A DNA stretch of 64,000 nt from an uncultured Acidobacteriota bacterium (GTDB lineage Bacteria; Acidobacteriota; Thermoanaerobaculia; Multivoradales; UBA5704), in assembly GCA_963698025.1 (NCBI GenBank), contig OY969112.1:1861200-1925199 (forward strand), given 5' to 3'. The stretch's first letter is position 1; every line of letters begins with the position of its first letter. A program made the translations under genes and the position numbers. This document shows positions 1,615 through 61,165 of the stretch, piece by piece. Under the pieces are notes generated by a model, which searched no databases, had not been told where the DNA came from, and saw only the letters and a list, made by a program, of their open reading frames with translations.

Positions 1615-2255
1615 GTCGGGGTTCGCAGACCAAGGCTGGCCCGGTCGGACCGGTGCACCTAACGGAAACGGCCGGAGTTCCGAGGATGCCTGGAAAGTAG
1701 AGGTAGCCCTGCAGGAGCGGCGGTTGAGCAGCCTGGACTTCAAACCCAAGGTAGGGCCCAGCCCGATCCCCTCAAGCTTCCCAAGAGGGTGGCTTATCGC
1801 GGAGGATCGATTGCCCTTCGGGCCTGAATGATTCTGCGACTGGGCGATTGCTACGGACCGAGTTACGCCTCCGCTAGGCCAGGCGTTGGGGCCGTCTCCA
1901 AGGCTTCCCAAGCAAGGGTCGAGATCTTTGACAAGCGAAGTCCCTGGGCTGGTGAACAGGTGGGGCGTTACTTCTGCCCTCCCTCTGTCCACTACATATT
2001 ACAAGGCGACTACCCCGCATTCCTGCTTATTGACGGGTAGCGCTACAGGCTGTAACATTGTTTCTTCCATAAGAGAAACGCGTTGTGTTGACCTCGCTTA
2101 CCACCATATCTCTGCCTTACGGCGAGATGCAGTTATAGCGGAAGCTGCCTAACAGACAACCCAAGCGGTCGGCTTAACGTCAGTCATAAGATTATCCGTA
2201 CGAGAGGGCACACTCTTTGCACAAACCACGCATTCGCCACTCTGAAAGGAAATTA

Positions 2256-5200
2256 TTGATCCCGCATATCAAACTTTATGCGGCGATTCTGCTACTCGCT
2301 CTTCCAGCATTGGCACAAACGAGCGGCCTCCCTACATTTCCCAAGCGCTCTGGATATTGGATGAAGCCTATCTCAGAGCAGCTCGGCGTGTGCGATGGCG
2401 GCTCAGTGGCTTGGGCGCAAAGATCGGGGGATCAATATTCAAAGGAACTCGAACTCGTCGACAACGTCGGACGAGTGGTTAACCGATGGACTTTCCCCCT
2501 CTCAATTCGGGATTTTTATCGCACATCTAATTGCACCACTTCATGGGTTCTTTCACGAGATCGTCGCCATATCTTCATTGTAAACAGCTTAACCGATCGG
2601 GAACCCATACCTCTCGCCAATGGGAATGGGATAGATGAAGTACGGCGACTCATTCCAGCTGACGACGGGAGCTTCGCCTGGGTCTATTTCGAAACCCGCA
2701 AACCAGACATCGCTATTGCCATTCGGAGCCCTCAGGGAATCGTATTGCAGGAGATATCAGGGATTCCACCCGACCTGGAGAGTCAAGATTATTCCGCCAT
2801 AGCACAAGGTAAACGACTCCTGGCTATACCCGTCAGAGGAGTAGGGATCTACTTCATAGAGGCGTCGGGTGCCCACAACATTAGCAAGAAAGATCTTTCT
2901 AATGTTTATAGTACTAACACAGGAGAATTGGCTTGGCTTATACCCAGGCTCGATAAGGGCGTATATCTCGTCGATGGCACCGGTCGCCCTCTTAATCAGG
3001 GCGCGCCTTTACTGAAAGATGAGGACGTAGTCCAGGTCTACTCGCGTTTCCGCGAGAGAGACTCGTATGCCTGGGTGCGAACCCAGAGCGATAGACTGTA
3101 CGCATTTGCGCCGATAGAAACTCCTCAAGGTTGGGCGATTCGGCCTCTCAACCATGGACATCCGGTGGCAATCGGCGCACAAACTCTCGCGGTAGATCTC
3201 GCCAGAGTAATTGGTTCAGGGCGAGTGGCTTGGGTGACTTCACAAAGCCGCTTTGCTCCGCCAGGTGCATGGGGAGATATTTATCGTGTCGAGGTCCAAG
3301 GAGACGACATAGCAGTGTCTTCGGTGCCGCGTCAGTACTTTGAAGGTAAGTCCGTCAACACTCTTTTTTGGGACCTTGAAAACCCTTGGCGCTTCTGGGC
3401 CAGGAGCCCAGACCTGTGCCTCTATGAAGTAAGACTACATCCCCAGGGAAAGTCTGAACCTGGTACGGAAGCAGAGCCTGCAAAGGTCTTTGACCACCAC
3501 TCTTCCTGTGTGCTTGTGGAGCAAATTATACCGAGCGGAATTCCTAGTCGATATTGGATCAATGCGACCCCCTCATATTATCTCATGGGGCCAGCCAACG
3601 ACATAACTGAAGCCATAGTCAGCCTGGGGCATGCCAGATTGAGCCTCAAGACCCCCAGAGGGCATCGACTACGCTTCGCAATGCGTGAAGGCTCTTCAAT
3701 CCATGCCAGCCTGAACTGGCCTACCCGTGATGACCATCTAATGGACATGAACCCTGAGACGTCTCGGGAGCGTCCGCGGATCCATATAACGTTCCTTGAC
3801 CCTAGGGATCATCAATCCACTCCTCGAGCCGAAGGTGAAGGGTTCGCAGACAAGGGAGAAGCCAGCATCCTTCTACACACGAACGGAAGCTCACATTGGA
3901 ATGAGACCTATGATATTCAACTTGAATATCACGATCCGCAGACACTGACCAACTTTCGGATACTTTGGCCTGGAGTGACTCTCGCTCCAACATTATACGA
4001 GTTGGTTACTGCGAGCCCTTACTGGAAAGCCCTGTGGCTCCTCGCTCTTCCCATCTTTGCACTACTGCTCGCCATTAATAAGAGTTGGCGGGTTCGACGC
4101 TGGATTCCAGTAGCCGTATCAGCAATTGAGGTACTTATAGCTAGCCGACTCCCAGAACCGATCAAGACAACCCCCTTAGAATTACTTAGCGTCGCAGCAT
4201 GCTGCTCCCTTACAATGCTCCTAGCAGGCCTAGCCTCTCCAGCTTTATTCCGTGAGCTTGCATTGATTCAGCCGTTCCGTCTTCTAGTACCTGCCGCGCT
4301 TCAGTTGCCGCGCTTGCGGCGCCGGGTATGGAAGTCCTACGTAAAAAATGTCCGCATGCTTCTGCAAATTTTTCGAGAAGACGCAAGTAACGAGACCTAC
4401 GTCCCTCTGGCCACTTCGGTAGTTGGCAGCCGACCACCACAAGGATCTTCGGTCGGCTCACAAGCTGACGTGAAAAGCATCGTAACTGTTCTCTCCGCTA
4501 AAGATCCACAACACAGAGCTACTATCCTGATAGAGGCTCCAGGTGGCCGTGGTAAGAGTGCACTCTGGAACGAGCTTTTGGCACGCTGCCTGGATGCTTT
4601 TGAGAATGATCCGCTATGCCCTCTTCCAGTGATTGGTGACCCTCGATGCAGTACTGTAGAGTCGATGGTTGAGTCTGGACTTGGCCGTTTTGGCATCTCG
4701 CCGGACATAACTGCGGCGCAACTAAAGTCCGGCGAGTTCGTTGTCTTCATTGACAATTTGAGCAGCTGTGACCTAGCACCAGCTGATCTTGAGACCTTCT
4801 TTAGAGCTGGCGGGGATAAAACTCGGCTCTGCTTAACCAACCGACCTGATAAAGAATGGCGCGGGCCCGTACGCAGGGCTGACACGTGGATCATTGTTGA
4901 ACCGGAACGACTATCTGATTCTTCTATTTGGGGCTTCGTCGACAATTATGCAATTACTGATGCCATACGAATGAATCGAGATGCAGAGTCCTATACCAAA
5001 CTGGTCAGAGAGAAAGTGGAGAAGTTCCTACCCATCTGCCGCTCAGAGGATGGTTCTTACCTACCACTCTTGGTTCGGCTTTGCACATTGGCCATCGAGC
5101 GTGATATTAGTTCTATTGATGATATTTATCTGAGCGCATTAAGGCGCTTATTAACCCGAAAAGATGCCATGAGCAATCTCGATGTCGAGCGGGTTCTCGT

Positions 5201-5843
5201 CGAAGCAGAGCAAATTGGCATTGAAACCTACTGGCACGAGCACGATCGGCTCTTCCGGTTCGAGCGCACAACACCGGAGCGTACGCAAATAATGCGAGAA
5301 CTGCTCCAAGCAGGCGTAGTAGTGGGGGCAGATCGCACCAAGAGGCTAAACGAGGAGCCCAAACAAGTTCGTTTCTTTCACGACTCTGTTCAGTCCTATC
5401 TTGTTGCACGAGGTCTCCACCGGGCGGGCGATTGGGAATGCTTTCTCCAAGCCGCTGGCGATCCATTCTTCTGCCGAGCGGCTTCGGATTTTATCGGTGG
5501 CACAGGGTCAGAATTATTTCAGATGTGTCTTTATGTTTTTGAAGCAAGCCGTGTTCGCCGACATCTGATCGAAGATTTGCTGAGTTGGGCGGGATGCTAT
5601 TGGGCCACCCTTTCGATTGATGATGTACTCGTCGGATTAACCGAGGAATCGCAAGCCGCAGTTGAAAGGCGTATCTCCACCCTAGTCGGAGCAGGTGAGT
5701 ACCTGCGGATTGCCGTGGAGGTGGTTGCTGCAGAGGACATGCAAGAAGACGGCACTGTTCGACTTGGTCGACTTTATGCAAAGCTTGCCCCAAAAGTGTG
5801 GCAACGAACTTGCGTTGAGGAGAATCGCAACGAAGTTGCTTAA
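2256..5843 (+). CDS. Large membrane-anchored STAND-class (NACHT/NB-ARC-like) P-loop NTPase with an N-terminal periplasmic domain; low-GC, probably horizontally acquired
   Basis: The most plausible start is TTG 2256, with an AGGA ribosome-binding site 5 nt upstream. Alternative starts are TTG 2217 and ATG 2359. A signal peptide (IPHIKLYAAILLLALPALA-QTSG) leads into roughly 560 aa of periplasmic sequence. Two to three transmembrane helices follow (WLLALPIFALLLAI ... SVAACCSLTMLLAGLA). The cytoplasmic part has a Walker A motif APGGRGKSAL, a Walker B motif FVVFIDNL and a TRLCLTNR sensor-like motif, then about 500 aa of helical sequence. GC content is markedly lower than the flanking DNA. Confidence 0.8.
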   Translation: MIPHIKLYAAILLLALPALAQTSGLPTFPKRSGYWMKPISEQLGVCDGGSVAWAQRSGDQYSKELELVDNVGRVVNRWTFPLSIRDFYRTSNCTTSWVLSRDRRHIFIVNSLTDREPIPLANGNGIDEVRRLIPADDGSFAWVYFETRKPDIAIAIRSPQGIVLQEISGIPPDLESQDYSAIAQGKRLLAIPVRGVGIYFIEASGAHNISKKDLSNVYSTNTGELAWLIPRLDKGVYLVDGTGRPLNQGAPLLKDEDVVQVYSRFRERDSYAWVRTQSDRLYAFAPIETPQGWAIRPLNHGHPVAIGAQTLAVDLARVIGSGRVAWVTSQSRFAPPGAWGDIYRVEVQGDDIAVSSVPRQYFEGKSVNTLFWDLENPWRFWARSPDLCLYEVRLHPQGKSEPGTEAEPAKVFDHHSSCVLVEQIIPSGIPSRYWINATPSYYLMGPANDITEAIVSLGHARLSLKTPRGHRLRFAMREGSSIHASLNWPTRDDHLMDMNPETSRERPRIHITFLDPRDHQSTPRAEGEGFADKGEASILLHTNGSSHWNETYDIQLEYHDPQTLTNFRILWPGVTLAPTLYELVTASPYWKALWLLALPIFALLLAINKSWRVRRWIPVAVSAIEVLIASRLPEPIKTTPLELLSVAACCSLTMLLAGLASPALFRELALIQPFRLLVPAALQLPRLRRRVWKSYVKNVRMLLQIFREDASNETYVPLATSVVGSRPPQGSSVGSQADVKSIVTVLSAKDPQHRATILIEAPGGRGKSALWNELLARCLDAFENDPLCPLPVIGDPRCSTVESMVESGLGRFGISPDITAAQLKSGEFVVFIDNLSSCDLAPADLETFFRAGGDKTRLCLTNRPDKEWRGPVRRADTWIIVEPERLSDSSIWGFVDNYAITDAIRMNRDAESYTKLVREKVEKFLPICRSEDGSYLPLLVRLCTLAIERDISSIDDIYLSALRRLLTRKDAMSNLDVERVLVEAEQIGIETYWHEHDRLFRFERTTPERTQIMRELLQAGVVVGADRTKRLNEEPKQVRFFHDSVQSYLVARGLHRAGDWECFLQAAGDPFFCRAASDFIGGTGSELFQMCLYVFEASRVRRHLIEDLLSWAGCYWATLSIDDVLVGLTEESQAAVERRISTLVGAGEYLRIAVEVVAAEDMQEDGTVRLGRLYAKLAPKVWQRTCVEENRNEVA

Positions 5844-6133: not shown

Positions 6134-6250
6134 CAGAGCCTGCAGCATGTGACCGACGGTAGCTATGTTAATAGCCATCTTGACGACACGGTTTATCGTC
6201 CCGGCCCAACAGAGTATCATTGTGCGACCTACGACTGCGGGAACGCCTGA
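6134..6250 (+). pseudogene. Decayed paralog of the RiPP precursor at 9211: the core peptide is retained and the leader is degraded
   Basis: It encodes ...VTDGSYVNSHLDDTVYRPGPTEYHCATYDCGNA. Precursor A encodes ...VTGGAVNSYINDTVYRPAPTEYRCATDGCGYA. There is an in-frame stop immediately upstream and no leader or start codon. A conserved downstream module of about 90 bp is shared with the 9377-9470 region. Confidence 0.45.
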
Positions 6251-9210: not shown

Positions 9211-9375
9211 TTGAAGAAGCAGACGAAGATCCAGAAGCTCGTGCTCAAGAAGGAAACGATGGTCAGCTTGCAGGATGTGACCGGCGGCGCTGTTAATAGC
9301 TATATCAACGACACGGTTTATCGTCCCGCCCCGACAGAGTATCGGTGTGCGACCGACGGCTGCGGGTACGCCTGA
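9211..9375 (+). CDS. RiPP / bacteriocin-like precursor peptide A with a double-glycine leader (54 aa)
   Basis: The ribosome-binding site AAGGAGG is 7 nt upstream of a TTG start. The leader is LKKQTKIQKLVLKKETMVSLQDVTGG and the core is AVNSYINDTVYRPAPTEYRCATDGCGYA. The leader motif is shared with the peptides at 54515 and 57872. Confidence 0.6.
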   Translation: MKKQTKIQKLVLKKETMVSLQDVTGGAVNSYINDTVYRPAPTEYRCATDGCGYA

Positions 9376-53538: not shown

Positions 53539-54006
53539 ATGGACACGCCCGCGCCTTCGGCCACCTTCGTTCGCACCGTCAAAGCCCCAGCCCGGGAGGT
53601 CTTCGCGGCCTGGATCGACCCCCAGCTCCTCCTGCGCTGGCTGGCGCCCAGCCCCTTCGGCGCGGGGACCGCGGAGGTCGACGCGCGCGTCGGCGGCCGG
53701 TATCGCATCGAAACGCCGGGCCAGGACGGCGAGCTGCACGTCACCACCGGCGAGTACCGGGAGCTGGTGCCGGGCCGGCGCCTGGTGCAGACCTGGGTCT
53801 ACGAAGGCCCGATGGCCGTGGCGAGGGGGTTCGAGACGCTGCTGACCGTGGAGCTGCGGGAGCTCGCGCCGGACCTCACCGAGCTGACCCTCCGCCACGA
53901 GCGCCTCCCGAACGCCGAGTACGGCGATCTCCTCCAGAAGGGGTGGACCGCCTGCCTGGACCGGCTGGAAGCGCTCTACGTGGAGGATCGCGTCACGCCG
54001 GCGTGA
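53539..54006 (+). CDS. SRPBCC (AHSA1 / activator-of-Hsp90-ATPase-like) domain protein
   Basis: This domain architecture is typical of genes paired with ArsR regulators. The motif VKAPAREVFAAWIDPQLLLRW is present. Confidence 0.9.
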   Translation: MDTPAPSATFVRTVKAPAREVFAAWIDPQLLLRWLAPSPFGAGTAEVDARVGGRYRIETPGQDGELHVTTGEYRELVPGRRLVQTWVYEGPMAVARGFETLLTVELRELAPDLTELTLRHERLPNAEYGDLLQKGWTACLDRLEALYVEDRVTPA

Positions 54007-54159
54007 GCGTCGCCGCCGGTCGAAAAAAGAGGGGGCTCCGGCACGCGGGCGCGGAGCCCCGTCAATCCGCCCAGGACTGCTTTGGGTCGTGCCCTAACCC
54101 GGTGTGGATGATCCGGGAGGCGGGATTATCGGCCCCACTGGTCTGACTGCATCCCATCA

Positions 54160-54320
54160 GGGATTAGCAGGCTCCGCTGTTGCAGGTAGTAAAAGTCCCG
54201 CAACCGATGACGGTGGCCCTCCCGCGACCTGTTCGAGGCCGCTTTCGAGATTGATCAGGGTCTCCTCCTTCCCCAGTACCAGCTTCTGTCCCCGGCGGTA
54301 CAACGAGCAACATGCGGCCC
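54160..54320 (-). pseudogene. Relic of a fourth GG-leader precursor peptide, disrupted by frameshifts
   Basis: On the minus strand, one frame reads QKLVLGKEETLINLESGLEQVAGG, which is leader-like. A second frame, shifted +2, continues as ATVIGCGTFTTCNSGAC followed by a stop, which is core-like. The only ATG is in the core frame. Confidence 0.35.
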
Positions 54321-54514
54321 CACCGGTGCTCGGGCACCCCCAGGTGCCCCCGCCAAGGTTGGAGACAAGCGCGGCGGCCGGTGCGGGGACCGGTGTTCGG
54401 GGATCAGCCTGGCCTCGCCTGGAGAGGGATTCGAGCAGCGCCGGCAGCGCTTCAGGATGCACTAGAATCCCTGGGCCGGGGATTCCTCCCCGGCGCTACC
54501 AGGAAGGACGAGCC

Positions 54515-54652
54515 ATGAAGAAGGCGAGCGTGAAGAAGATGGTGCTGAACAAGGAGACGCTACGGGGCCTGGAGCCCTCCTCGCTTGAGCAGATCTTAGG
54601 CGGGATGGATGACTCCGGCGCGCAAACCTGCCTGAACGCTGGCTGCTTATAA
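54515..54652 (+). CDS. RiPP / bacteriocin-like precursor peptide B with a double-glycine leader (45 aa)
   Basis: The ribosome-binding site AGGAAGGA precedes the ATG. The leader is MKKASVKKMVLNKETLRGLEPSSLEQILGG and the core is MDDSGAQTCLNAGCL. Confidence 0.6.
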   Translation: MKKASVKKMVLNKETLRGLEPSSLEQILGGMDDSGAQTCLNAGCL

Positions 54653-54800
54653 ACAACCAGGAGGAGACGCGCTCCCCCGAGCGCGGGGGGAGCGCTACCG
54701 CAGGTCCTGAGCTACCACAGGCCTTCCCTTTAGCCCTGCCACCCGCACCACCCACATTGAGTTAGGACACCACCGACGCGGCTCAACCAAGGAGAGATCG

Positions 54801-55007
54801 ATGAAGAGAAAGATGCTCGCCCTCGCCATCCTGCTCGGAGCCACCGTTTTCGCCTCCTCGGTCCCCCGTGCCGAGGCTACGTTCTCTTCCGAATGCGGTG
54901 CCCCCTTTTGCAGGTACACGAGCACCGTGTGCTACTGCTCGGCGAGCAGCGAGCACCCGGGCTGGGGAACCACCTGCGGCCAGTGGAAGATCGTGTGTTA
55001 CCAGTAA
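54801..55007 (+). CDS. Small secreted Cys-rich protein (68 aa, Sec signal peptide, 8 Cys)
   Basis: The ribosome-binding site is AAGGAGAG. The signal peptide MKRKMLALAILLGATVFASSVPRAEA is followed by the mature part TFSSECGAPFCRYTSTVCYCSASSEHPGWGTTCGQWKIVCYQ. The 3' tail is duplicated out of frame at 55008-55060 (AATCGGWKIACR). Confidence 0.6.
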   Translation: MKRKMLALAILLGATVFASSVPRAEATFSSECGAPFCRYTSTVCYCSASSEHPGWGTTCGQWKIVCYQ

Positions 55008-55130
55008 GCACCCGTCCGGGCAGCCACCTGCGGCGGTTGGAAGATCGCCTGTCGGTAAAGCCCCGCCTGAACCCTTTCCCGGAGTGACTGGCACTCGACC
55101 GATGGCACCTCACCCCGATCGGAGGCAACC

Positions 55131-55700: not shown

Positions 55701-55924
55701 TTCCACGTTTTCAGATTGCCAGCCCCAGAGTATCGCCCCTTCGGGGCTGGCCCCACTCCCCCAACCCCCTCTCACCCATCCTCCCCCCCCACCCACTGGG
55801 AGAGAGGGGGCTCGAAGAAGCTCTCTCAGACTAAAATGGGAGAAGAGGGCGGGGTGATGAGGGCCAGTGCCGGGCCGCCGCCGCCGCCGTGCCCTGGCCT
55901 CGTCGCACGACGGACCGCGAAACA

Positions 55925-56385
55925 GGCCTTAGAAGGCGTTCATATATACACTTCGTCGATTTTTATATACGCGAGCCTCACCTGGGCATCGGCGGAGGTC
56001 TTCTCTATATACGAATTGCTCCTGGATATATACAAAACACCGCCAATGAGGGCGGCAACCCCGATTTTTGGCGAATCAGCCTCTCCGGAAAGCTCTCCAA
56101 GGTCTCTGGATATATATAAAGCGCACAAAAATAGTGTTCCCGGAGGCTTGCCGACCTTTTTTTGAGGCATCTCTATATATTCGGAGCAGATTTGTATATA
56201 GGATTGGCTGCTTGGACCCCTTCGAGGGGGACTCTGTATATATTTTTTTCCGTTTTATATATAAAAAGAGGCGCCGGAATCCCTGCGAGCCCCTCAAAAG
56301 GCCGAGTCAGGGCTGCCGGAGCTCTCTCCAGGACAACTCCGTATATATTTTCCTGAGCTTTATATATAAAAAAGGCTCGTGGAAT
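55925..56385. repeat. AT-rich TATATA-box array (at least 11 copies), including two ~45-nt palindromic units (GTATATATTTTT..CC...TTTATATATAAAAA)
   Basis: TATATA(C/T) cores occur at about 55933, 55962, 56010, 56027, 56107, 56175, 56198, 56237, 56262, 56344 and 56366. The surrounding genome is about 70 % GC. No credible ORF is present. Confidence 0.7.
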
Positions 56386-56659
56386 GCTCGCGACGCCCCA
56401 TGCGAGCCTCCGAGTGCCGCCTCACCGCCTTCGGCTTCGCCGAATGAGTGCCCGGCCCCTCTTCCCCCGGGAACTGACCGAGGAGATGGCGGAGATCTTC
56501 CGGGCCCGGGACGTCCACCGCGAGACCCTGGCCGCCCTCGCCGTCTTCCAGGCCGCCGCCGCCCTCGACGTCGCCACCGCCGACCTGGCCCGCGATCTCG
56601 CGGCCTACCTCACCCGCGCCCGTCTGGACCCCGAACTGCGCTTCGAGCGGGAGCGCTGA
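56384..56659 (+). pseudogene. C-terminal fragment (about 70 aa) of the zf-HC2/TPR gene family
   Basis: LTEEMAEIFRARDVHRETLAALAVFQAAAALDVATADLARDLAAYLTRARLDPELRFERER is nearly identical to the C-termini of the proteins at 58492 and 60191. The preceding 19 aa are unrelated. Confidence 0.5.
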
Positions 56660-57195
56660 GCCCGCCCGGCTCGGGGAGCCACGTTTCGGTCCCCGACGGC
56701 TCGGCACCGCTGCCGGTTCGACCGGGGTGTCCGTGGCCCGCCGCGACCTCATCCCTATCCCCTTCTCCTAAAAGGAGAAGGGACGTCTCCGAAGCGTGTG
56801 GCCCGTAGGGTGCGCTGTGCGCACCCCGCTCCCCGCCCCCGCCCTGCAAGGGCGGACGTTGCCCAGCCTGGGTGGCAACCCACCCTCTTACATACAAGTC
56901 GCTGATCTTTGGATTCGGCTGCTCAAGGCAGGAATTCCGGACGCCCGCCCGCAGGGCGGATTTATCCAGCCTGGGGTGTCAACCCCAGGAAGGCGGCCCC
57001 AAGATCGACAAGCCCCGCAGGGCCGGCATGTCTTTGCCGATCGAAGCTCCCGTCGGGGTGTCGGCCCTGCGGGGCTTCCAGGGATGGGAGGGCACCCAGT
57101 CCTGGGGTTCGCTGTTCCTCAGGTTCGGTCAGCAGCCTGCTGACCAAGCCGGAGCGGCTAGCGGTCTCTGCCGGCTGGGCCAGGGCACCTTCCGC

Positions 57196-57540
57196 ATGCC
57201 GGTGACGGACAGCTACCAGCGTCGTTGCGCGGTCACGGGAGAGAAGGCCCTGCCGGTCCTCGACGCCGCCCACATCCTGCCGGTCGGCAAGGGGGGCCAG
57301 CACCGCCTCGACAACAGCCTCCTCCTCCGCACCGACGTCCACCGCCTCTACGACAAGGGCTACGTCACCGTCACCCCGGACGGCCACTTCCTCGTCAGCC
57401 GCCGCCTCAAGGACGACTTCGACAACGGCGAGCCCTACATGCCCTTCCATGGCCAGCGGATCTGGATGCCTGGAGACCCGGGGAGCCAGCCGAACCGGGA
57501 GACGCTGGAGTGGCATGCGGAGGGGGTGTTTTGGGGGTGA
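57196..57540 (+). CDS. HNH nuclease family protein (HNH_2 / restriction-endonuclease-like)
   Basis: The motifs are RRCAVTGEKALPVLDAAHILPV ... LLLRTDVHRLYDKGYVTV. The start is ATG 57196 (MPVTDSYQ). The upstream part of the listed ORF is repeat DNA. Confidence 0.7.
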   Translation: MPVTDSYQRRCAVTGEKALPVLDAAHILPVGKGGQHRLDNSLLLRTDVHRLYDKGYVTVTPDGHFLVSRRLKDDFDNGEPYMPFHGQRIWMPGDPGSQPNRETLEWHAEGVFWG

Positions 57541-57671: not shown

Positions 57672-57872
57672 TCAGCAGTTGCAGTTCGTGAATCCGTCGC
57701 ACGACGGACACGTTGCCCAGTCACAATAGGTATAGCCACAGCTATTACAGCCACTCGCTCCAGGGCAACCAGACGTGCCGGGAGGGTTACCACCCTCAAT
57801 CCCACGCAGAGTAGAATCTGTCAAGTTTCGCAATGTCTCTTTGCTTAGAATGAGCTTTCTTACTTTTCGCAT
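57672..57872 (-). CDS. RiPP precursor peptide C: double-glycine leader plus a Cys-rich (10 Cys) Ser/Thr-containing core, lanthipeptide-like (66 aa)
   Basis: The ribosome-binding site GGAG lies 8 nt upstream of the ATG. The leader is MRKVRKLILSKETLRNLTDSTLRGIEGG and the core is NPPGTSGCPGASGCNSCGYTYCDWATCPSCDGFTNCNC. The gene is AT-rich relative to its surroundings. Confidence 0.65.
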   Translation of the reverse strand: MRKVRKLILSKETLRNLTDSTLRGIEGGNPPGTSGCPGASGCNSCGYTYCDWATCPSCDGFTNCNC

Positions 57873-58491: not shown

Positions 58492-59817
58492 TTGGAACAC
58501 CACCACCTGAACCGGGCCGTACTGGAACGCCTCCTGGCCGAGGACCGCACCGAGGACGAGAACCGCAGCCTCCTCCACCTGATCGCCGTCTGCCCGGAGT
58601 GCCGCAAGGCCGGCGGCTACCTACTCGATCTCCACCGGGCCGGCGCCCTGCCGCTCCACTTCGGTCCGGTGGACGTGGCCCTCGCTCTCTCGCGGGCCGA
58701 GGCGCCGCGCCTCTGGGAACGCCTCGCGCGCCACTCCCACGAGCGCCGCCTCGCCCTCGTCCGCACCACCCGGCGCTTCGCGAGTTGGGGACTCTGTGAG
58801 CTGCTCTGCCGGGAGAGCCGGAAAGCCGCCACGGACGATCCGATCCAGACAGCCCAATTGGCGGAGCTCGCCGTGCTCGTCGCCGACGCCCTCGAGGAGG
58901 GCTCGCCCTACGAGGCCGGCTGGGTCTACCAGCTCCGCGCCTTCGCCTGGGCCCATTTCGGTCACGCCCGCAGGATCGGAGGAGATTTTCAGGGAGCGGA
59001 GGAGGCGTTTTCGATGTCTGATCCCTGGTGGGAAGCGGGCGACGAATCCGTGGGAGACGCCCTCGGTTATGGCTTGGACATCCTTGCCTTGAAGGCCTCG
59101 CTTCGCACCGACCAACGCCGCTTCCCTGAAGCCCTGGCCCTACTCGACCGTGCATTCGCCGGATACCTCCACGGCGATCCCGAGTATCGTGACCGGCATC
59201 TGGCAGGTCGGATTCTCGTCAAGAAGGCACATGTCCTCACCCAGTTAACGGAGCCCGTACGAGCGATCCTTGCCCTCCAGGAAGCCGGGAAGCTCGTGGA
59301 CCCCGACCGCGATCCCCGCCTGCGCCTCTGCCTCCGGCACAACCTGCTGGACAACCTGGCGACGGCGGGACGGTTCGCGGAAGCGCGGGATCTGCTGCCT
59401 GAGGTGAAGGCGCTCTGCGGATCGGCCGGGAGCCGTCTCGACGAGATCCGCCTCCTCTGGGTGGAAGGCCGGATCGCGGCCGGACTGGGCGACCGGAGCA
59501 TGGCCCGGCAAGCCTTCGGCGACGCGCGGCGGGAGTTCGCCACCCGCGGAATGAGCTATGACGCGGCGCTGATCTCCCTCGAGCTGGCCGTCCTCCTGAT
59601 CGACGAAGGGGAGACGGCGGAGGTGCGGGAGCTGGCCGAAGAGATGACGGAGATCTTCCGGGCTCGGGACGTCCATCGCGAGACCCTGGCCGCCCTCGCC
59701 GTCTTCCAGGCCGCCGCCGCTCTCGACGCCGCCACCGTCGACCTGGCCCGCGACCTCGCCGCCTACCTCACCCGCGCCCGCCTGGACCCCGAGCTGCGCT
59801 TCGAGCGGGAGCGCTGA
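58492..59817 (+). CDS. Putative regulator with an N-terminal zf-HC2 motif (anti-sigma-factor-like) and a C-terminal TPR-like helical domain
   Basis: The start is TTG. H-x3-C-x2-C is present (HLIAVCPEC). TPR-like repeats occupy the C-terminus. The N-terminal domain is paralogous to the 26666 ORF, and the C-terminal domain is paralogous to the 60191 ORF and the 56384 fragment. Confidence 0.75.
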   Translation: MEHHHLNRAVLERLLAEDRTEDENRSLLHLIAVCPECRKAGGYLLDLHRAGALPLHFGPVDVALALSRAEAPRLWERLARHSHERRLALVRTTRRFASWGLCELLCRESRKAATDDPIQTAQLAELAVLVADALEEGSPYEAGWVYQLRAFAWAHFGHARRIGGDFQGAEEAFSMSDPWWEAGDESVGDALGYGLDILALKASLRTDQRRFPEALALLDRAFAGYLHGDPEYRDRHLAGRILVKKAHVLTQLTEPVRAILALQEAGKLVDPDRDPRLRLCLRHNLLDNLATAGRFAEARDLLPEVKALCGSAGSRLDEIRLLWVEGRIAAGLGDRSMARQAFGDARREFATRGMSYDAALISLELAVLLIDEGETAEVRELAEEMTEIFRARDVHRETLAALAVFQAAAALDAATVDLARDLAAYLTRARLDPELRFERER

Positions 59818-60190: not shown

Positions 60191-61165
60191 GTGCCGGCAA
60201 GCGCCCTCCCTTACCTGCCTAACACCCCCGGCGGGCAGCGCGGCGGGCGGCCCCTGGCCCTCCGCCGCGACCCGGTGATCGCCCCGCCGTTGCGAGTCAC
60301 CTGGCACCTGGTTTCTGGGCGAGTCGGAGGAGATATCAGGGGATCGGAGGAGACATTCTCCATGTCCGATCCCTGGTGGGAAGCGGGCGAAGAATTCGTC
60401 GGAGATGCCCTCGGGTATGGCCTCGACATCCTGGCTTTGAAGGCGCCGCTTCGCAGCGACCAGAGCCGCTTTCCCGAGGCTCTTGCGCTGCTCGACCACG
60501 CCCTCGCCGGATACTTCCACGGCGATCCCGAATACCGCGACCGGCATCTGGCAGGACGGGTCCTCATCAAGAAGGCCTATGTCTTTATCCGTATGGCGGA
60601 GCCCGAACAGGCGCTCCTCATTCTCCGGGAAGCCGAGGGGCTCGTGGTCCCCGACCGCGAGCCCCGTCTACTTCTCTGCCTCCGGCACAACCTGCCGGAC
60701 AACCTGGCGTCGGCGGGACGGTTCACGGAGGCGCGGGAGCTGCTGCCCGAGGTAAAGGCGCTCTGCGGATCGGCCGGGAGCCGTCTTGACGAGATCCGCC
60801 TCCGCTGGGTGGAAGGCCGGATCGCGGCCGGACTAGGCGACCGGAACATGGCCCGGCAGGCCTTCGGCGACGCGCGGCGGGAGTTCGCCACCCGCGGAAT
60901 GGGCTATGACGCGGCGCTGATCTCCCTGGAGCTGGCCGTCCTCCTGATCGACGAAGGGGAGACGGCGGAGGTGCGGGAGCTGGCCGAAGAGATGACGGAG
61001 ATCTTCCGGGCCCGGGACGTCCACCGCGAGACCCTGGCCGCCCTCGCCGTCTTCCAGGCCGCCGCCGCCCTCGACGCCGCCACCGCCGACCTGGCCCGCG
61101 ACCTCGCCGCCTACCTCACCCGCGCCCGTCTGGACCCCGAGCTGCGCTTCGAGCGGGAGCGCTGA
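60191..61165 (+). CDS. N-terminally truncated paralog of the zf-HC2/TPR protein (TPR-like domain only)
   Basis: It is homologous to 58492 from the GGD(F/I)(Q/R)G(A/S)EE(A/T)FSMSDPWW block onward. The GTG start and the first ~50 aa are unrelated. It may be a pseudogene. Confidence 0.55.
   Translation: MPASALPYLPNTPGGQRGGRPLALRRDPVIAPPLRVTWHLVSGRVGGDIRGSEETFSMSDPWWEAGEEFVGDALGYGLDILALKAPLRSDQSRFPEALALLDHALAGYFHGDPEYRDRHLAGRVLIKKAYVFIRMAEPEQALLILREAEGLVVPDREPRLLLCLRHNLPDNLASAGRFTEARELLPEVKALCGSAGSRLDEIRLRWVEGRIAAGLGDRNMARQAFGDARREFATRGMGYDAALISLELAVLLIDEGETAEVRELAEEMTEIFRARDVHRETLAALAVFQAAAALDAATADLARDLAAYLTRARLDPELRFERER

What the first reader, a model, noticed from the sequence alone, without database searches (positions are those of the whole stretch)
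54157..54652. Precursor peptide B next to a frameshifted relic of a fourth precursor on the opposite strand
The plus-strand gene 54515-54652 encodes the leader MKKASVKKMVLNKETLRGLEPSSLEQILGG and the core MDDSGAQTCLNAGCL. Reading the minus strand of 54160-54320 gives the leader-like QKLVLGKEETLINLESGLEQVAGG in one frame. A Cys/Thr-rich core-like ATVIGCGTFTTCNSGAC followed by a stop lies in a second frame, and the only ATG is in that second frame. Two frameshifts are needed to join them, so this is a decayed family member. Its core resembles that of peptide C (SGCNSCGYTYC). Convergent precursor genes and a relic suggest a locus that has repeatedly gained and lost peptide genes.
Basis: seen in the sequence. 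Interest (0 to 1): 0.55.

Follow-up and report, generated by a model that had tools for sequence, protein, structure and literature searches.

The report
Dead lanthipeptide-type precursor gene beside a live one
Next to an intact small gene for a lanthipeptide-type peptide precursor lies the broken remnant of a second one, whose intact counterpart survives in a related soil bacterium; this is ordinary gene decay in a stretch of genome that differs between close relatives.

Summary
Peptide B (54515-54652, +) is intact. On the minus strand of 54164-54290 a leader-like frame and a Cys/Thr-rich core-like frame are offset by one base.

It is not chance. A leader profile built from 110 unrelated family members picks out four sites in all six frames of the window: B, C, A and this one (20.8 bits, E 1.6e-5; next best 5.7 bits). 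An intact 45-aa homologue exists in a JGI metagenome contig: P0132, MKKQVKKLVLAKETLIDLEASLEHVAGGATVIGCGTYTTCNSRAC. It is 87% identical in DNA over 175 nt, and 15 of 17 core residues match.

Against that gene the relic has three lesions:
- one G lost from a GGGG run exactly at the leader/core junction;
- an in-frame GAG insertion that breaks the LxLxKx5L leader motif;
- loss of the first six codons, the ribosome-binding site and the family's conserved promoter/5'UTR.

So there is one frameshift plus a 5' truncation, not two frameshifts. The genes are divergent, not convergent. The likeness to peptide C is not significant.

Four contigs from three close relatives (90-97% nt identity) all lack the relic, and each of the three has different gene content here. 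This supports a gain-and-loss hotspot. No lanthipeptide enzymes lie in the window. Low interest: a new member of a known kind.

The parts
54515..54652 (+). Intact precursor gene B: 30-aa leader ending GG plus 15-aa core MDDSGAQTCLNAGCL
   Evidence: Translation. NCBIfam NF038153 lant_leader_L1a 26.0 bits against a cutoff of 22. Leader HMM 35.8 bits. Orthologues with the same core are found in L014, L016 and L017. dN/dS against L014 is about 0.29.
54334..54514 (+). Conserved upstream element of B-type precursor genes. It holds a -10-like TAGAAT at 54463-54468, a 5'UTR hairpin at 54475-54494 and the SD GGAAGGA at 54502-54508.
   Evidence: An nhmmer profile built from 7 relatives' genes hits the window only at 54390-54523, E 2.8e-25, and hits 44 sites in the fetched loci. 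The hairpin is 97% paired in 34 sequences but shows no two-sided covariation. The far-upstream part, 54334-54400, matches L016, L026 and L040.
54653..54780 (+). 3' region of the B module, ending with the family 3' motif ACATTGAGTTAGGACAC (54754-54770)
   Evidence: The motif occurs once in the window, with 0 expected by chance. TGAGTTAGGNCAC occurs 26 times in 12 family loci. Homology to L014, L012 and L017 ends at 54770-54780.
54217..54287 (-). Relic, leader part (KLVLGKEETLINLESGLEQVAGG), homologous to codons 7-28 of the intact gene
   Evidence: 89.7% nt identity to L015. Codon-position GC is 0.70/0.37/0.80, which looks coding. Leader HMM 20.8 bits, E 1.6e-5.
54262..54267 (-). GAGGAG where the intact gene has GAG: an in-frame 3-nt insertion turning KETL into KEETL and breaking the LxLxKx5L spacing
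   Evidence: Alignment A2. The motif definition is from PMC7268733. NF038153 falls from 19.2 bits for P0132 to 9.7 bits for the relic, even with an idealised N-terminus.
54217..54219 (-). GGG run where the intact gene has GGGG: a 1-nt deletion at the leader/core junction that puts the core out of frame
   Evidence: Alignment A2. Coordinates.
54164..54216 (-). Relic, core part (A)TVIGCGTFTTCNSGAC plus TAA, in the frame shifted relative to the leader
   Evidence: 88.7% nt identity to L015. 15 of 17 residues match P0132's core ATVIGCGTYTTCNSRAC.
54081..54163 (-). 3' flank of the relic, still homologous to the 3' flank of the intact gene. It includes a diverged copy of the family 3' motif (54081-54110).
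   Evidence: 81.6% identity to L015. 54081-54110 matches 3'-motif regions of L023, L025, L027 and L028 at 87-89%.
54288..54333 (.). Spacer between the relic's breakpoint and the B module, with no homologue found. It replaces the relic's first six codons, SD, 5'UTR and promoter, and contains the incidental ATG at 54313-54311.
   Evidence: No BLAST match in any fetched locus. Upstream identity to L015 is not above shuffles: 25 matches against 21.3 +/- 3.7. No hit of the upstream-element profile on the minus strand.
54004..54777 (.). Segment holding the relic and B that is present here but absent from relatives L012/L013. L011 lacks 54008-55114 and L016 lacks 53653-54374.
   Evidence: blastn of the loci against the window. 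Junction sequences.

Best explanation
54081-54287 (minus strand) is the non-functional remnant of a stand-alone precursor-peptide gene. I call it D. It belongs to the LxLxKx5L...GG leader family that NCBI names class I lanthipeptide, and it sits head-to-head with the intact paralogue B.

Shown: the ancestor encoded roughly MKKxxKKLVLxKETLIxLExxLExVAGG-ATVIGCGT(F/Y)TTCNSxAC, as the intact homologue P0132 still does. The copy in this window has lost its promoter/5'UTR element, its ribosome-binding site, its start codon and its first six codons. It has gained an extra Glu codon inside the most conserved leader motif. It has lost one G from a G4 run exactly at the leader/core junction. As a result the leader frame runs into 19 unrelated codons and the core is read in another frame.

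Inferred: the relic is neither transcribed from a family promoter nor translated into a usable substrate. B probably still works as family members do. Its leader would dock the peptide on the modifying enzymes. Ser/Thr in the core would be dehydrated and Cys added to form thioether rings. The leader would then be removed after GG. The enzymes for this must be encoded elsewhere in the roughly 7 Mb genome, because none is in the window.

The relic and B lie in a 774-bp segment that close relatives lack, in a spot where every relative examined has different content. Turnover of these small gene modules by insertion and deletion is therefore the process that created the relic and is now eroding it.
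For: - Intact homologue: P0132 is 45 aa and is encoded in L015. The DNA alignment gives 87.4% identity, E 7e-54, and locates the G4-to-G3 deletion, the GAG insertion and the breakpoint at codon 7.
- Family membership of the leader frame: a custom leader HMM gives 20.8 bits, E 1.6e-5, with the best fragment outside the four precursor sites at 5.7 bits. Codon-position GC in that frame looks coding, at 0.70/0.37/0.80.
- Loss of the 5' end: upstream identity to L015 is not above shuffles. The profile of the family's upstream element hits only B in the whole window. No SD lies before either the TTG or the ATG.
- Leader decay: NF038153 scores 19.2 bits for P0132 but 9.7 bits for the relic, even with a restored frame and an idealised N-terminus. 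Leader dN/dS against L015 is about 3.7, but on very few sites.
- Absence from relatives: L011, L012/L013 and L016 lack it. A metagenome scan found no other D-type core.
- Family function: B and C pass the NF038153 cutoff. The homologue P0225 is named class I lanthipeptide and lies between two LANC_like genes in L046. LxLxKx5L plus GG leaders are described for class I LanAs in PMC7268733.
- A second relic, of peptide A type, at 6134-6247 shows that this kind of decay recurs in the genome.
Against: - The single-base deletion lies in a homopolymer and could not be checked against reads or against a second assembly of the same strain.
- A TTG in the leader frame (54303-54301) could in principle start translation, and peptide A uses TTG.
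- The core frame is still open from an ATG (49 aa), and the core is well conserved (15 of 17). The decay is therefore recent, or residual function is not strictly excluded.
- dN/dS rests on about 13 substitutions and proves nothing alone.
- No LanB, LanC or C39 transporter is in the window. No LanB was seen next to any family member examined. The lanthipeptide chemistry is therefore inferred from the leader model and from one LanC-flanked homologue.
Confidence: 0.85

Rival explanations
1. The relic never functioned at this site. A fragment of a D-type module (codon 7 to the 3' motif) was brought in already truncated, by illegitimate recombination or together with the insertion of the B module. 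It did not decay in place from a complete divergent D/B gene pair.
For: Homology ends abruptly at 54287/54288, and 46 bp with no homologue follow. The spacing between the relic and B is about 211 bp, against about 315 bp in the intact divergent pairs of L017. The B module occurs in unrelated contexts in L014 and L017, with sharp ends of homology.
Against: No relative shows either state (an intact D/B pair, or D alone at this site), so the order of events is unknown. A simple deletion of about 100-180 bp explains the same picture. The frameshift and the codon insertion are extra lesions that fit decay in place.
Confidence: 0.3
2. The frameshift is a sequencing or assembly error in a G homopolymer. 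The window really encodes an intact 46-aa precursor that starts at the TTG at 54303.
For: The lesion is one base in a G4 run. TTG starts are used in this family here, in peptide A. With one G added the ORF reads MYRRGQKLVLGKEETLINLESGLEQVAGGATVIGCGTFTTCNSGAC.
Against: The flanking coding regions align to L011 and L016 over about 2.5 kb without frame-breaking gaps, so the assembly looks clean here. The repaired ORF would still lack an SD, the conserved MKK N-terminus and the family promoter/5'UTR. It would still carry the KEETL insertion, and it scores only 9.7 bits on NF038153 even with an idealised N-terminus.
Confidence: 0.07
3. A product is still made. It could be the 49-aa ATG ORF in the core frame (54313-54164, MLLVV...GRGRATVIGCGTFTTCNSGAC), which would be the old core behind a new N-terminal sequence. 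It could be the 101-aa GTG ORF (54462-54160). Or the full precursor could be made by ribosomal or transcriptional slippage on the G run.
For: Both ORFs are open. The core is conserved and in frame with the only ATG. GGTGGGG lies 6 nt before that ATG.
Against: In the leader region the core frame has GC3 of 0.34, against about 0.8-0.9 for genes here. 54307-54462 has no codon periodicity in any frame. The 101-aa ORF has no credible homologue among 1.84 billion representatives: three weak, multi-stretch hits to long proteins. There is no promoter-like site and no family upstream element. A core without the recognised leader would not be a substrate in any known lanthipeptide pathway (established knowledge).
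Confidence: 0.03
4. The family resemblance is a chance product of translating GC-rich non-coding DNA.
For: Gly/Ala/Cys/Thr-rich strings are common in six-frame translations of 68% GC DNA. The upstream string LVSNLGGGTWGCPSTGGAACC looks core-like and is probably exactly that.
Against: DNA homology to an intact gene at E 7e-54. Leader HMM E 1.6e-5, with a clear gap to the noise.
Confidence: 0.01

Closest known systems
Class I lanthipeptide precursors with LxLxKx5L...GG leaders (NCBIfam NF038153 lant_leader_L1a; pinensin-type LanAs of Bacteroidetes, Walker et al. 2020, PMC7268733)
   Same: B and C pass the curated NF038153 cutoff. They have the LxLxKx5L motif, a GG leader end and a Ser/Thr/Cys-rich core. 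A homologue in a Thermoanaerobaculia MAG lies between two LanC-like genes.
   Different: These genes stand alone, with their own conserved promoter/5'UTR, far from any LanB, LanC or C39 transporter (none in 64 kb). The host appears to be an acidobacterium rather than a Bacteroidetes (inferred). The relic itself fails the model and the motif spacing.
Prochlorosin (ProcA) precursor families of marine picocyanobacteria
   Same: Both have many paralogous precursor genes with a conserved leader and hypervariable cores, scattered in the genome away from the modifying enzyme. PMC7268733 notes the distant location. That ProcA genes sit in variable regions with frequent gain and loss is from my own knowledge of the ProcA literature and was not checked here.
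   Different: Prochlorosins have Nif11/NHLP-type leaders and a class II LanM enzyme. Here the leader is the L1a type and the enzyme set is unknown.
TIGR04149 GG_sam_targ_CFB (radical-SAM-modified GG-leader peptides of Bacteroidetes)
   Same: The leader architecture is similar (KKLxLxKETIxxL...GG). Some family members give sub-threshold or threshold hits: P0143 34.5 bits against a cutoff of 25.
   Different: B, C, A and the relic give no hit at E<=1. No radical-SAM gene is in the window. NF038153 always scores higher.
Ordinary bacterial pseudogenes formed by homopolymer frameshift and 5' deletion
   Same: A one-base loss in a G run, loss of start signals, absence from close relatives, and substitution rates (dN/dS) that appear relaxed.
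   Different: Nothing essential. The only special point is that the gene is so short (45 codons) that it would be invisible without the intact homologue.

Membership tests
Class I lanthipeptide precursor, L1a leader type (NF038153) | Leader scores above the curated cutoff (22 bits) of NF038153 | tested here: not met
   For the relic: no hit at E<=1 as MYRRGQ..., and 9.7 bits with an idealised MKKQVKK N-terminus. For comparison, B scores 26.0, C 23.9, A 16.8 and the intact homologue P0132 19.2 bits. B and C are members by this test; the relic is not.
Class I lanthipeptide precursor, L1a leader type (NF038153) | LxLxKx5L motif followed by a leader ending in Gly-Gly (PMC7268733) | tested here: not met
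   The relic reads LVLGKEETLINL, so the spacing is x6 because of the extra GAG. Its GG is present. B (MVLNKETLRGL...GG) and C (LILSKETLRNL...GG) meet the motif, with M in place of the first L in B.
Class I lanthipeptide precursor, L1a leader type (NF038153) | Core with Ser/Thr and Cys in the same reading frame as the leader | tested here: not met
   The relic's core ATVIGCGTFTTCNSGAC (4 Thr, 1 Ser, 3 Cys) is in a different frame from its leader. B's core MDDSGAQTCLNAGCL (1 Ser, 1 Thr, 2 Cys) is in frame.
Class I lanthipeptide precursor, L1a leader type (NF038153) | LanB dehydratase and LanC cyclase (and often a C39 protease/transporter) encoded nearby | tested here: not met
   Pfam scans of 40 ORFs covering the large ORFs of the window found no Lant_dehydr, LANC_like or Peptidase_C39 domain. 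In L046 a homologue is flanked by two LANC_like genes, but no LanB lies within the 7-10 kb read on each side. The rest of the source genome could not be read.
Class I lanthipeptide precursor, L1a leader type (NF038153) | Dehydrated residues and (methyl)lanthionine rings in the mature product | not testable with these tools
   Needs mass spectrometry or NMR of the peptide.
Pseudogene of a precursor-peptide gene | An intact homologue exists, and the copy here is disrupted relative to it | tested here: met
   P0132/L015 is intact. The window copy has a 1-nt deletion, a 3-nt insertion and a 5' truncation.
Pseudogene of a precursor-peptide gene | Loss of expression signals | tested here: met
   The family upstream-element profile hits only B. 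There is no SD and no sigma-70-like site. Actual transcription was not measured.
Pseudogene of a precursor-peptide gene | Relaxed selective constraint | tested here: inconclusive
   dN/dS against L015 is about 1.4 overall and about 3.7 in the leader, but it rests on only about 13 substitutions.
TIGR04149 rSAM-modified GG-leader RiPP | Score above the model cutoff, and a radical-SAM maturase nearby | tested here: not met
   No TIGR04149 hit for B, C, A or the relic at E<=1. No radical-SAM domain in the window.

The most novel reading that the evidence does not exclude
These stand-alone precursor genes may be discrete cassettes of about 400 bp. Each has a conserved promoter/5'UTR-hairpin element at one end and a conserved TGAGTTAGGNCAC motif at the other. 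The cassettes may be moved, duplicated, inverted and deleted as units in soil Acidobacteriota. That would be a dedicated mechanism for diversifying a RiPP precursor repertoire, served by enzymes encoded elsewhere. On this reading the relic is the footprint of one such cassette exchange rather than of random decay.
Probability: 0.15. Interest if true: 0.6.

Novelty: new member of a known kind. Interest (0 to 1): 0.27.

Why it matters
The relic is a routine pseudogene, and calling it correctly only tidies the annotation. It is one dead gene, with one frameshift and a 5' truncation, and there is no convergent pair.

Its wider value is as a marker. It shows that short precursor genes of the L1a-leader family turn over quickly at a single chromosomal spot among near-identical soil bacteria. 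It also shows that family members far from any modifying enzyme carry their own strongly conserved promoter/5'UTR and a 3' motif.

If the source genome and its relatives encode one promiscuous enzyme set that serves dozens of such scattered precursors, this would be an acidobacterial, class-I-type counterpart of the prochlorosin system. That would matter for genome mining, because cluster-based tools miss precursors that lie far from their enzymes.

Tried and rejected
- Exact look-ups of the window's AHSA1 protein, peptide B and the peroxiredoxin found no recorded gene, although peptide B's sequence is in the protein collection (P0145, on a 7.05 Mb contig).
- A search with the repaired relic peptide alone found no candidate. 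The intact homologue appeared only when the six-peptide alignment was used.
- A scan of GTDB species genomes with the AHSA1 protein found nothing closer than 57% identity, so there is no orthologous locus among reference genomes.
- A metagenome scan with the D-type alignment returned 28 family loci but no second D-type core.
- The idea of a fifth, fused precursor in the upstream string LVSNLGGGTWGCPSTGGAACC is rejected. The string has no leader-HMM domain, no codon periodicity and no homologues.
- The ATG at 54313 as the ancestral start is rejected as unsupported.
- An alternative 5'UTR hairpin that would sequester the SD (TCCCTGG with CCAGGGA) was dropped. My own reading of the aligned sequences suggests its pairs are not kept where the sequence varies, but I did not count this pairing. 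The upstream hairpin is kept in 97% of cells, without two-sided covariation.
- Rfam has no family for the B upstream element.
- Pfam has no model for these peptides in the copy searched.

Full report
**What is in the sequence**

The window is 67.7% GC.

On the minus strand, one frame reads ...SLYRRGQKLVLGKEETLINLESGLEQVAGG and then runs on through PPSSVAGLLLPATAEPANP to a TGA at 54159-54157. The frame offset by two bases reads ...GRGRATVIGCGTFTTCNSGAC and ends at a TAA at 54166-54164. The only ATG (54313-54311) is in the core frame. A TTG (54303-54301) lies in the leader frame.

Codon-position GC supports the leader frame as once coding: 0.70/0.37/0.80 over 54217-54306, close to peptide B's 0.52/0.39/0.83. 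The 156 nt upstream (54307-54462) show no periodicity in any frame. The 101-aa GTG ORF that the ORF listing reports there is therefore not a gene. It also has no credible homologue among 1.84 billion representative proteins.

The two genes are head-to-head, not convergent. The relic is read leftwards from about 54303 and B rightwards from 54515.

**Is it more than chance?**

I built a leader profile from 110 family members. It excluded the window's own peptides, their orthologues and the intact homologue. I scored all 1354 six-frame fragments of the window against it. Four fragments stand out:

| Fragment | Bits | E-value |
|---|---|---|
| B | 35.8 | 3.3e-10 |
| C (57672-57872, minus) | 35.6 | 3.9e-10 |
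| A (9211-9375, plus) | 26.0 | 3.8e-7 |
| Relic | 20.8 | 1.6e-5 |
| Best of the rest | 5.7 | 0.87 |

The relic aligns to profile positions 5-29 only, so the N-terminus is missing.

**The intact homologue**

A database search with an alignment of six family peptides returned 595 proteins. One of them is P0132 (45 aa, JGI sample 3300062856): MKKQVKKLVLAKETLIDLEASLEHVAGGATVIGCGTYTTCNSRAC. Its core matches the relic's core at 15 of 17 positions.

Its contig (L015) aligns to window 54115-54287 at 87.4% identity over 175 columns, E 7e-54. The pairwise alignment shows three differences that matter:

1. L015 has GTCGCGGGAGGGGCCACC where the window has GTCGCGGGAGGGCCACC. One G is missing from a G4 run (minus-strand run at 54217-54219), exactly between the GG of the leader and the Ala that begins the core.
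2. The window has AAGGAGGAGACC where L015 has AAGGAGACC. This in-frame extra Glu turns KETL into KEETL.
3. Homology stops at codon 7 (54287/54288). Upstream, the two sequences share 25 matches, against 21.3 +/- 3.7 in shuffles.

By segment, identity is 89.7% in the leader part, 88.7% in the core and 81.6% in the 3' flank.

So the ATG, the AAGGAG ribosome-binding site and everything before them are absent, and 46 bp (54288-54333) with no match in any fetched locus stand in their place. One frameshift, not two, separates the relic from an intact gene.

**What the missing 5' end contained**

B-type genes, including the intact D gene in L015, share a strongly conserved upstream element...CTTCAGGATGnGCTAGAATnCCCnGGCCGGGGR-loop-TCCCTGGCRCTACCAGGGAG...ATGAAGAAG.

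A profile of it, built from seven genes of relatives, hits the window once, at 54390-54523 before B, with E 2.8e-25. It does not hit the relic's strand. It hits 44 sites in the fetched soil-metagenome loci.

The element holds a -10-like TAGAAT (54463-54468 in the window) and a hairpin (54475-54494). The hairpin is paired in 97% of cells across 34 sequences. It varies only by one-sided GU/GC/AU changes, so covariation is not demonstrable. Rfam has nothing for it.

The relic does keep the family's 3' flank, including a diverged copy of the 3' motif (54081-54110). The consensus form TGAGTTAGGNCAC occurs 26 times in 12 family loci, and once after B at 54754-54770.

**Decay of the leader**

Walker et al. 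2020 describe class I LanA leaders with LxLxKx5L followed by GG (PMC7268733). B (MVLNKETLRGL) and C (LILSKETLRNL) fit. The relic's LVLGKEETLINL has x6.

On NCBIfam NF038153 (cutoff 22 bits), B scores 26.0, C 23.9 and P0132 19.2. The relic scores 9.7 even with its frame repaired and an idealised N-terminus.

Nei-Gojobori estimates against L015 give dN/dS of about 1.4 overall and about 3.7 in the leader. B against its L014 orthologue gives about 0.29. The counts are tiny, so I treat this only as consistent with decay.

**The locus in relatives**

The adjacent AHSA1 protein has 94% and 85% identical homologues in metagenomes. Their contigs and others compare with the window as follows:

- L011 (95% nt identity) runs ArsR, AHSA1, then directly the peroxiredoxin gene. 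Window 54008-55114 is absent. A B-like gene and another precursor lie further on, beside a transposase-like ORF with no Pfam match; that label is my reading of its sequence.
- L012/L013 (90% nt identity) run AHSA1, then directly the Cys-rich 68-aa gene. Window 54004-54777 (relic plus B) is absent.
- L016 (97% nt identity) joins window 53652 to 54375 across the microhomology GCGGGGACCG. This removes the 3' part of AHSA1 and the whole relic but keeps B.
- L014 carries the B module (54462-54780, 91.6% nt identity) between an MscS channel gene and a glyoxalase gene.
- L017 carries at least nine precursor genes, including two divergent pairs about 315 bp apart.

Thus none of the four contigs from three close relatives has the relic, and each of the three has a different arrangement.

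The window holds a second relic of the same kind at 6134-6247: QSLQHVTDGSYVNSHLDDTVYRPGPTEYHCATYDCGNA*. It is a leaderless paralogue of peptide A, with GG changed to DG.

**What the family does**

This step is inferred. B and C are named class I lanthipeptide by the NCBIfam leader model. One homologue, P0225 (54% identical to B over the aligned leader region), comes from a Thermoanaerobaculia MAG and lies between two LANC_like genes and a methyltransferase gene.

The cores across the family are hypervariable and rich in Cys, Ser and Thr. B's own core, however, is conserved in L014, L016 and L017.

No LanB, LanC, C39 transporter or radical-SAM gene lies in the 64-kb window. No LanB was seen near P0225 either. 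The most likely mechanism for B is:

1. leader-guided dehydration and thioether cyclisation by enzymes encoded elsewhere;
2. cleavage of the leader after GG.

I put roughly 0.6 on lanthionine chemistry specifically. The relic takes no part in this.

**Rivals**

- A sequencing error in the G run cannot be excluded without reads. The flanking genes, though, align to relatives without frame-breaking gaps, and the other lesions would remain.
- Arrival as an already truncated fragment, as against decay in place, cannot be decided. No relative shows an intermediate state.
- Expression of the open 49-aa core-frame ORF is unlikely: GC3 is 0.34 in its first 30 codons, and there is no promoter element.
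- Chance is excluded.

**Source organism**

This is inferred. The best named relatives of the neighbouring proteins and of the peptides are Thermoanaerobaculia MAGs. A sub-threshold Acido-Lenti-1 RNA match lies at 56946-56989. GTDB reference genomes have nothing closer than 57% identity for the AHSA1 protein. Peptides A and B are recorded on a single 7,050,730-bp NCBI/ENA contig.

**Verdict**

The conserved cassette-like architecture of the stand-alone precursor genes is the more interesting by-product.

Noticed in passing
window 54334-54514 (+); 44 sites in L011, L014-L031, L034 and L038-L044: A strongly conserved promoter/5'UTR element lies upstream of B-type stand-alone precursor genes. It has a -10-like GCTAGAAT, then the hairpin GCCGGGGR/TCCCYGGC, then CTACCAGGGAG and the ATG. 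It matches no Rfam family. The hairpin is 97% paired in 34 sequences but has no two-sided covariation.
   Followed up: partly
window 54754-54770 (+); diverged copy at 54081-54110 (-); 26 copies in 12 loci: A conserved 3' motif, TGAGTTAGGNCAC, lies 40-100 nt after the stop of family genes. Homology to relatives ends at or just past it (54770-54780), so each gene looks like a bounded module of about 400 bp.
   Followed up: partly
window 6134-6247 (+): A second relic: a leaderless paralogue of peptide A (about 68% identical over 37 aa), preceded by a stop codon and with GG changed to DG.
   Followed up: partly
window 2217-5843 (+): A 1208-aa ORF with a signal-peptide-like N-terminus and no Pfam match. 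It lies in a low-GC island (about 51% against 68%), directly upstream of the second relic.
   Followed up: no
window 56384-56659 (+): A 91-aa fragment duplicating the C-terminus of the TPR proteins at 58492-59817 and 60191-61165. The same fragment follows the Cys-rich gene in L012/L013. It is another gene remnant in this variable region.
   Followed up: no
window 55900-56370: An AT-rich stretch (45-50% GC) with repeated CTGGATATATAyAAA-like units and inverted repeats, between the peroxiredoxin gene and the TPR fragment.
   Followed up: no
window 56946-56989 (-): A sub-threshold match to the Rfam Acido-Lenti-1 RNA (30.5 bits against a gathering score of 37, E 3.5e-4). It lies inside the doubtful N-terminal part of the HNH-endonuclease ORF 56872-57540.
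   Followed up: no
L016 651-707 against window 53652/54375: A 97%-identical relative has a 722-bp deletion at the microhomology GCGGGGACCG. The deletion fuses the start of the AHSA1 gene to the region upstream of B, and JGI called the fusion as one 131-aa protein clustered with peptide B. It could also be a chimeric assembly.
   Followed up: partly
L046 5823-9917: In a Thermoanaerobaculia MAG, a family precursor lies between two LANC_like genes and a PrmA-like methyltransferase gene, with no LanB dehydratase within the 7-10 kb read on each side. This raises the question of what dehydrates these peptides.
   Followed up: no
L017 2900-6800: A 12.5-kb metagenome contig carries at least nine precursor genes of this family within 4 kb. 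They include two divergent pairs about 315 bp apart, and all have different cores.
   Followed up: partly
window 54801-55007 (+): A secreted 68-aa protein with 8 Cys lies immediately after the B module. It is conserved in L012/L013 and L016 and matches no family model.
   Followed up: no
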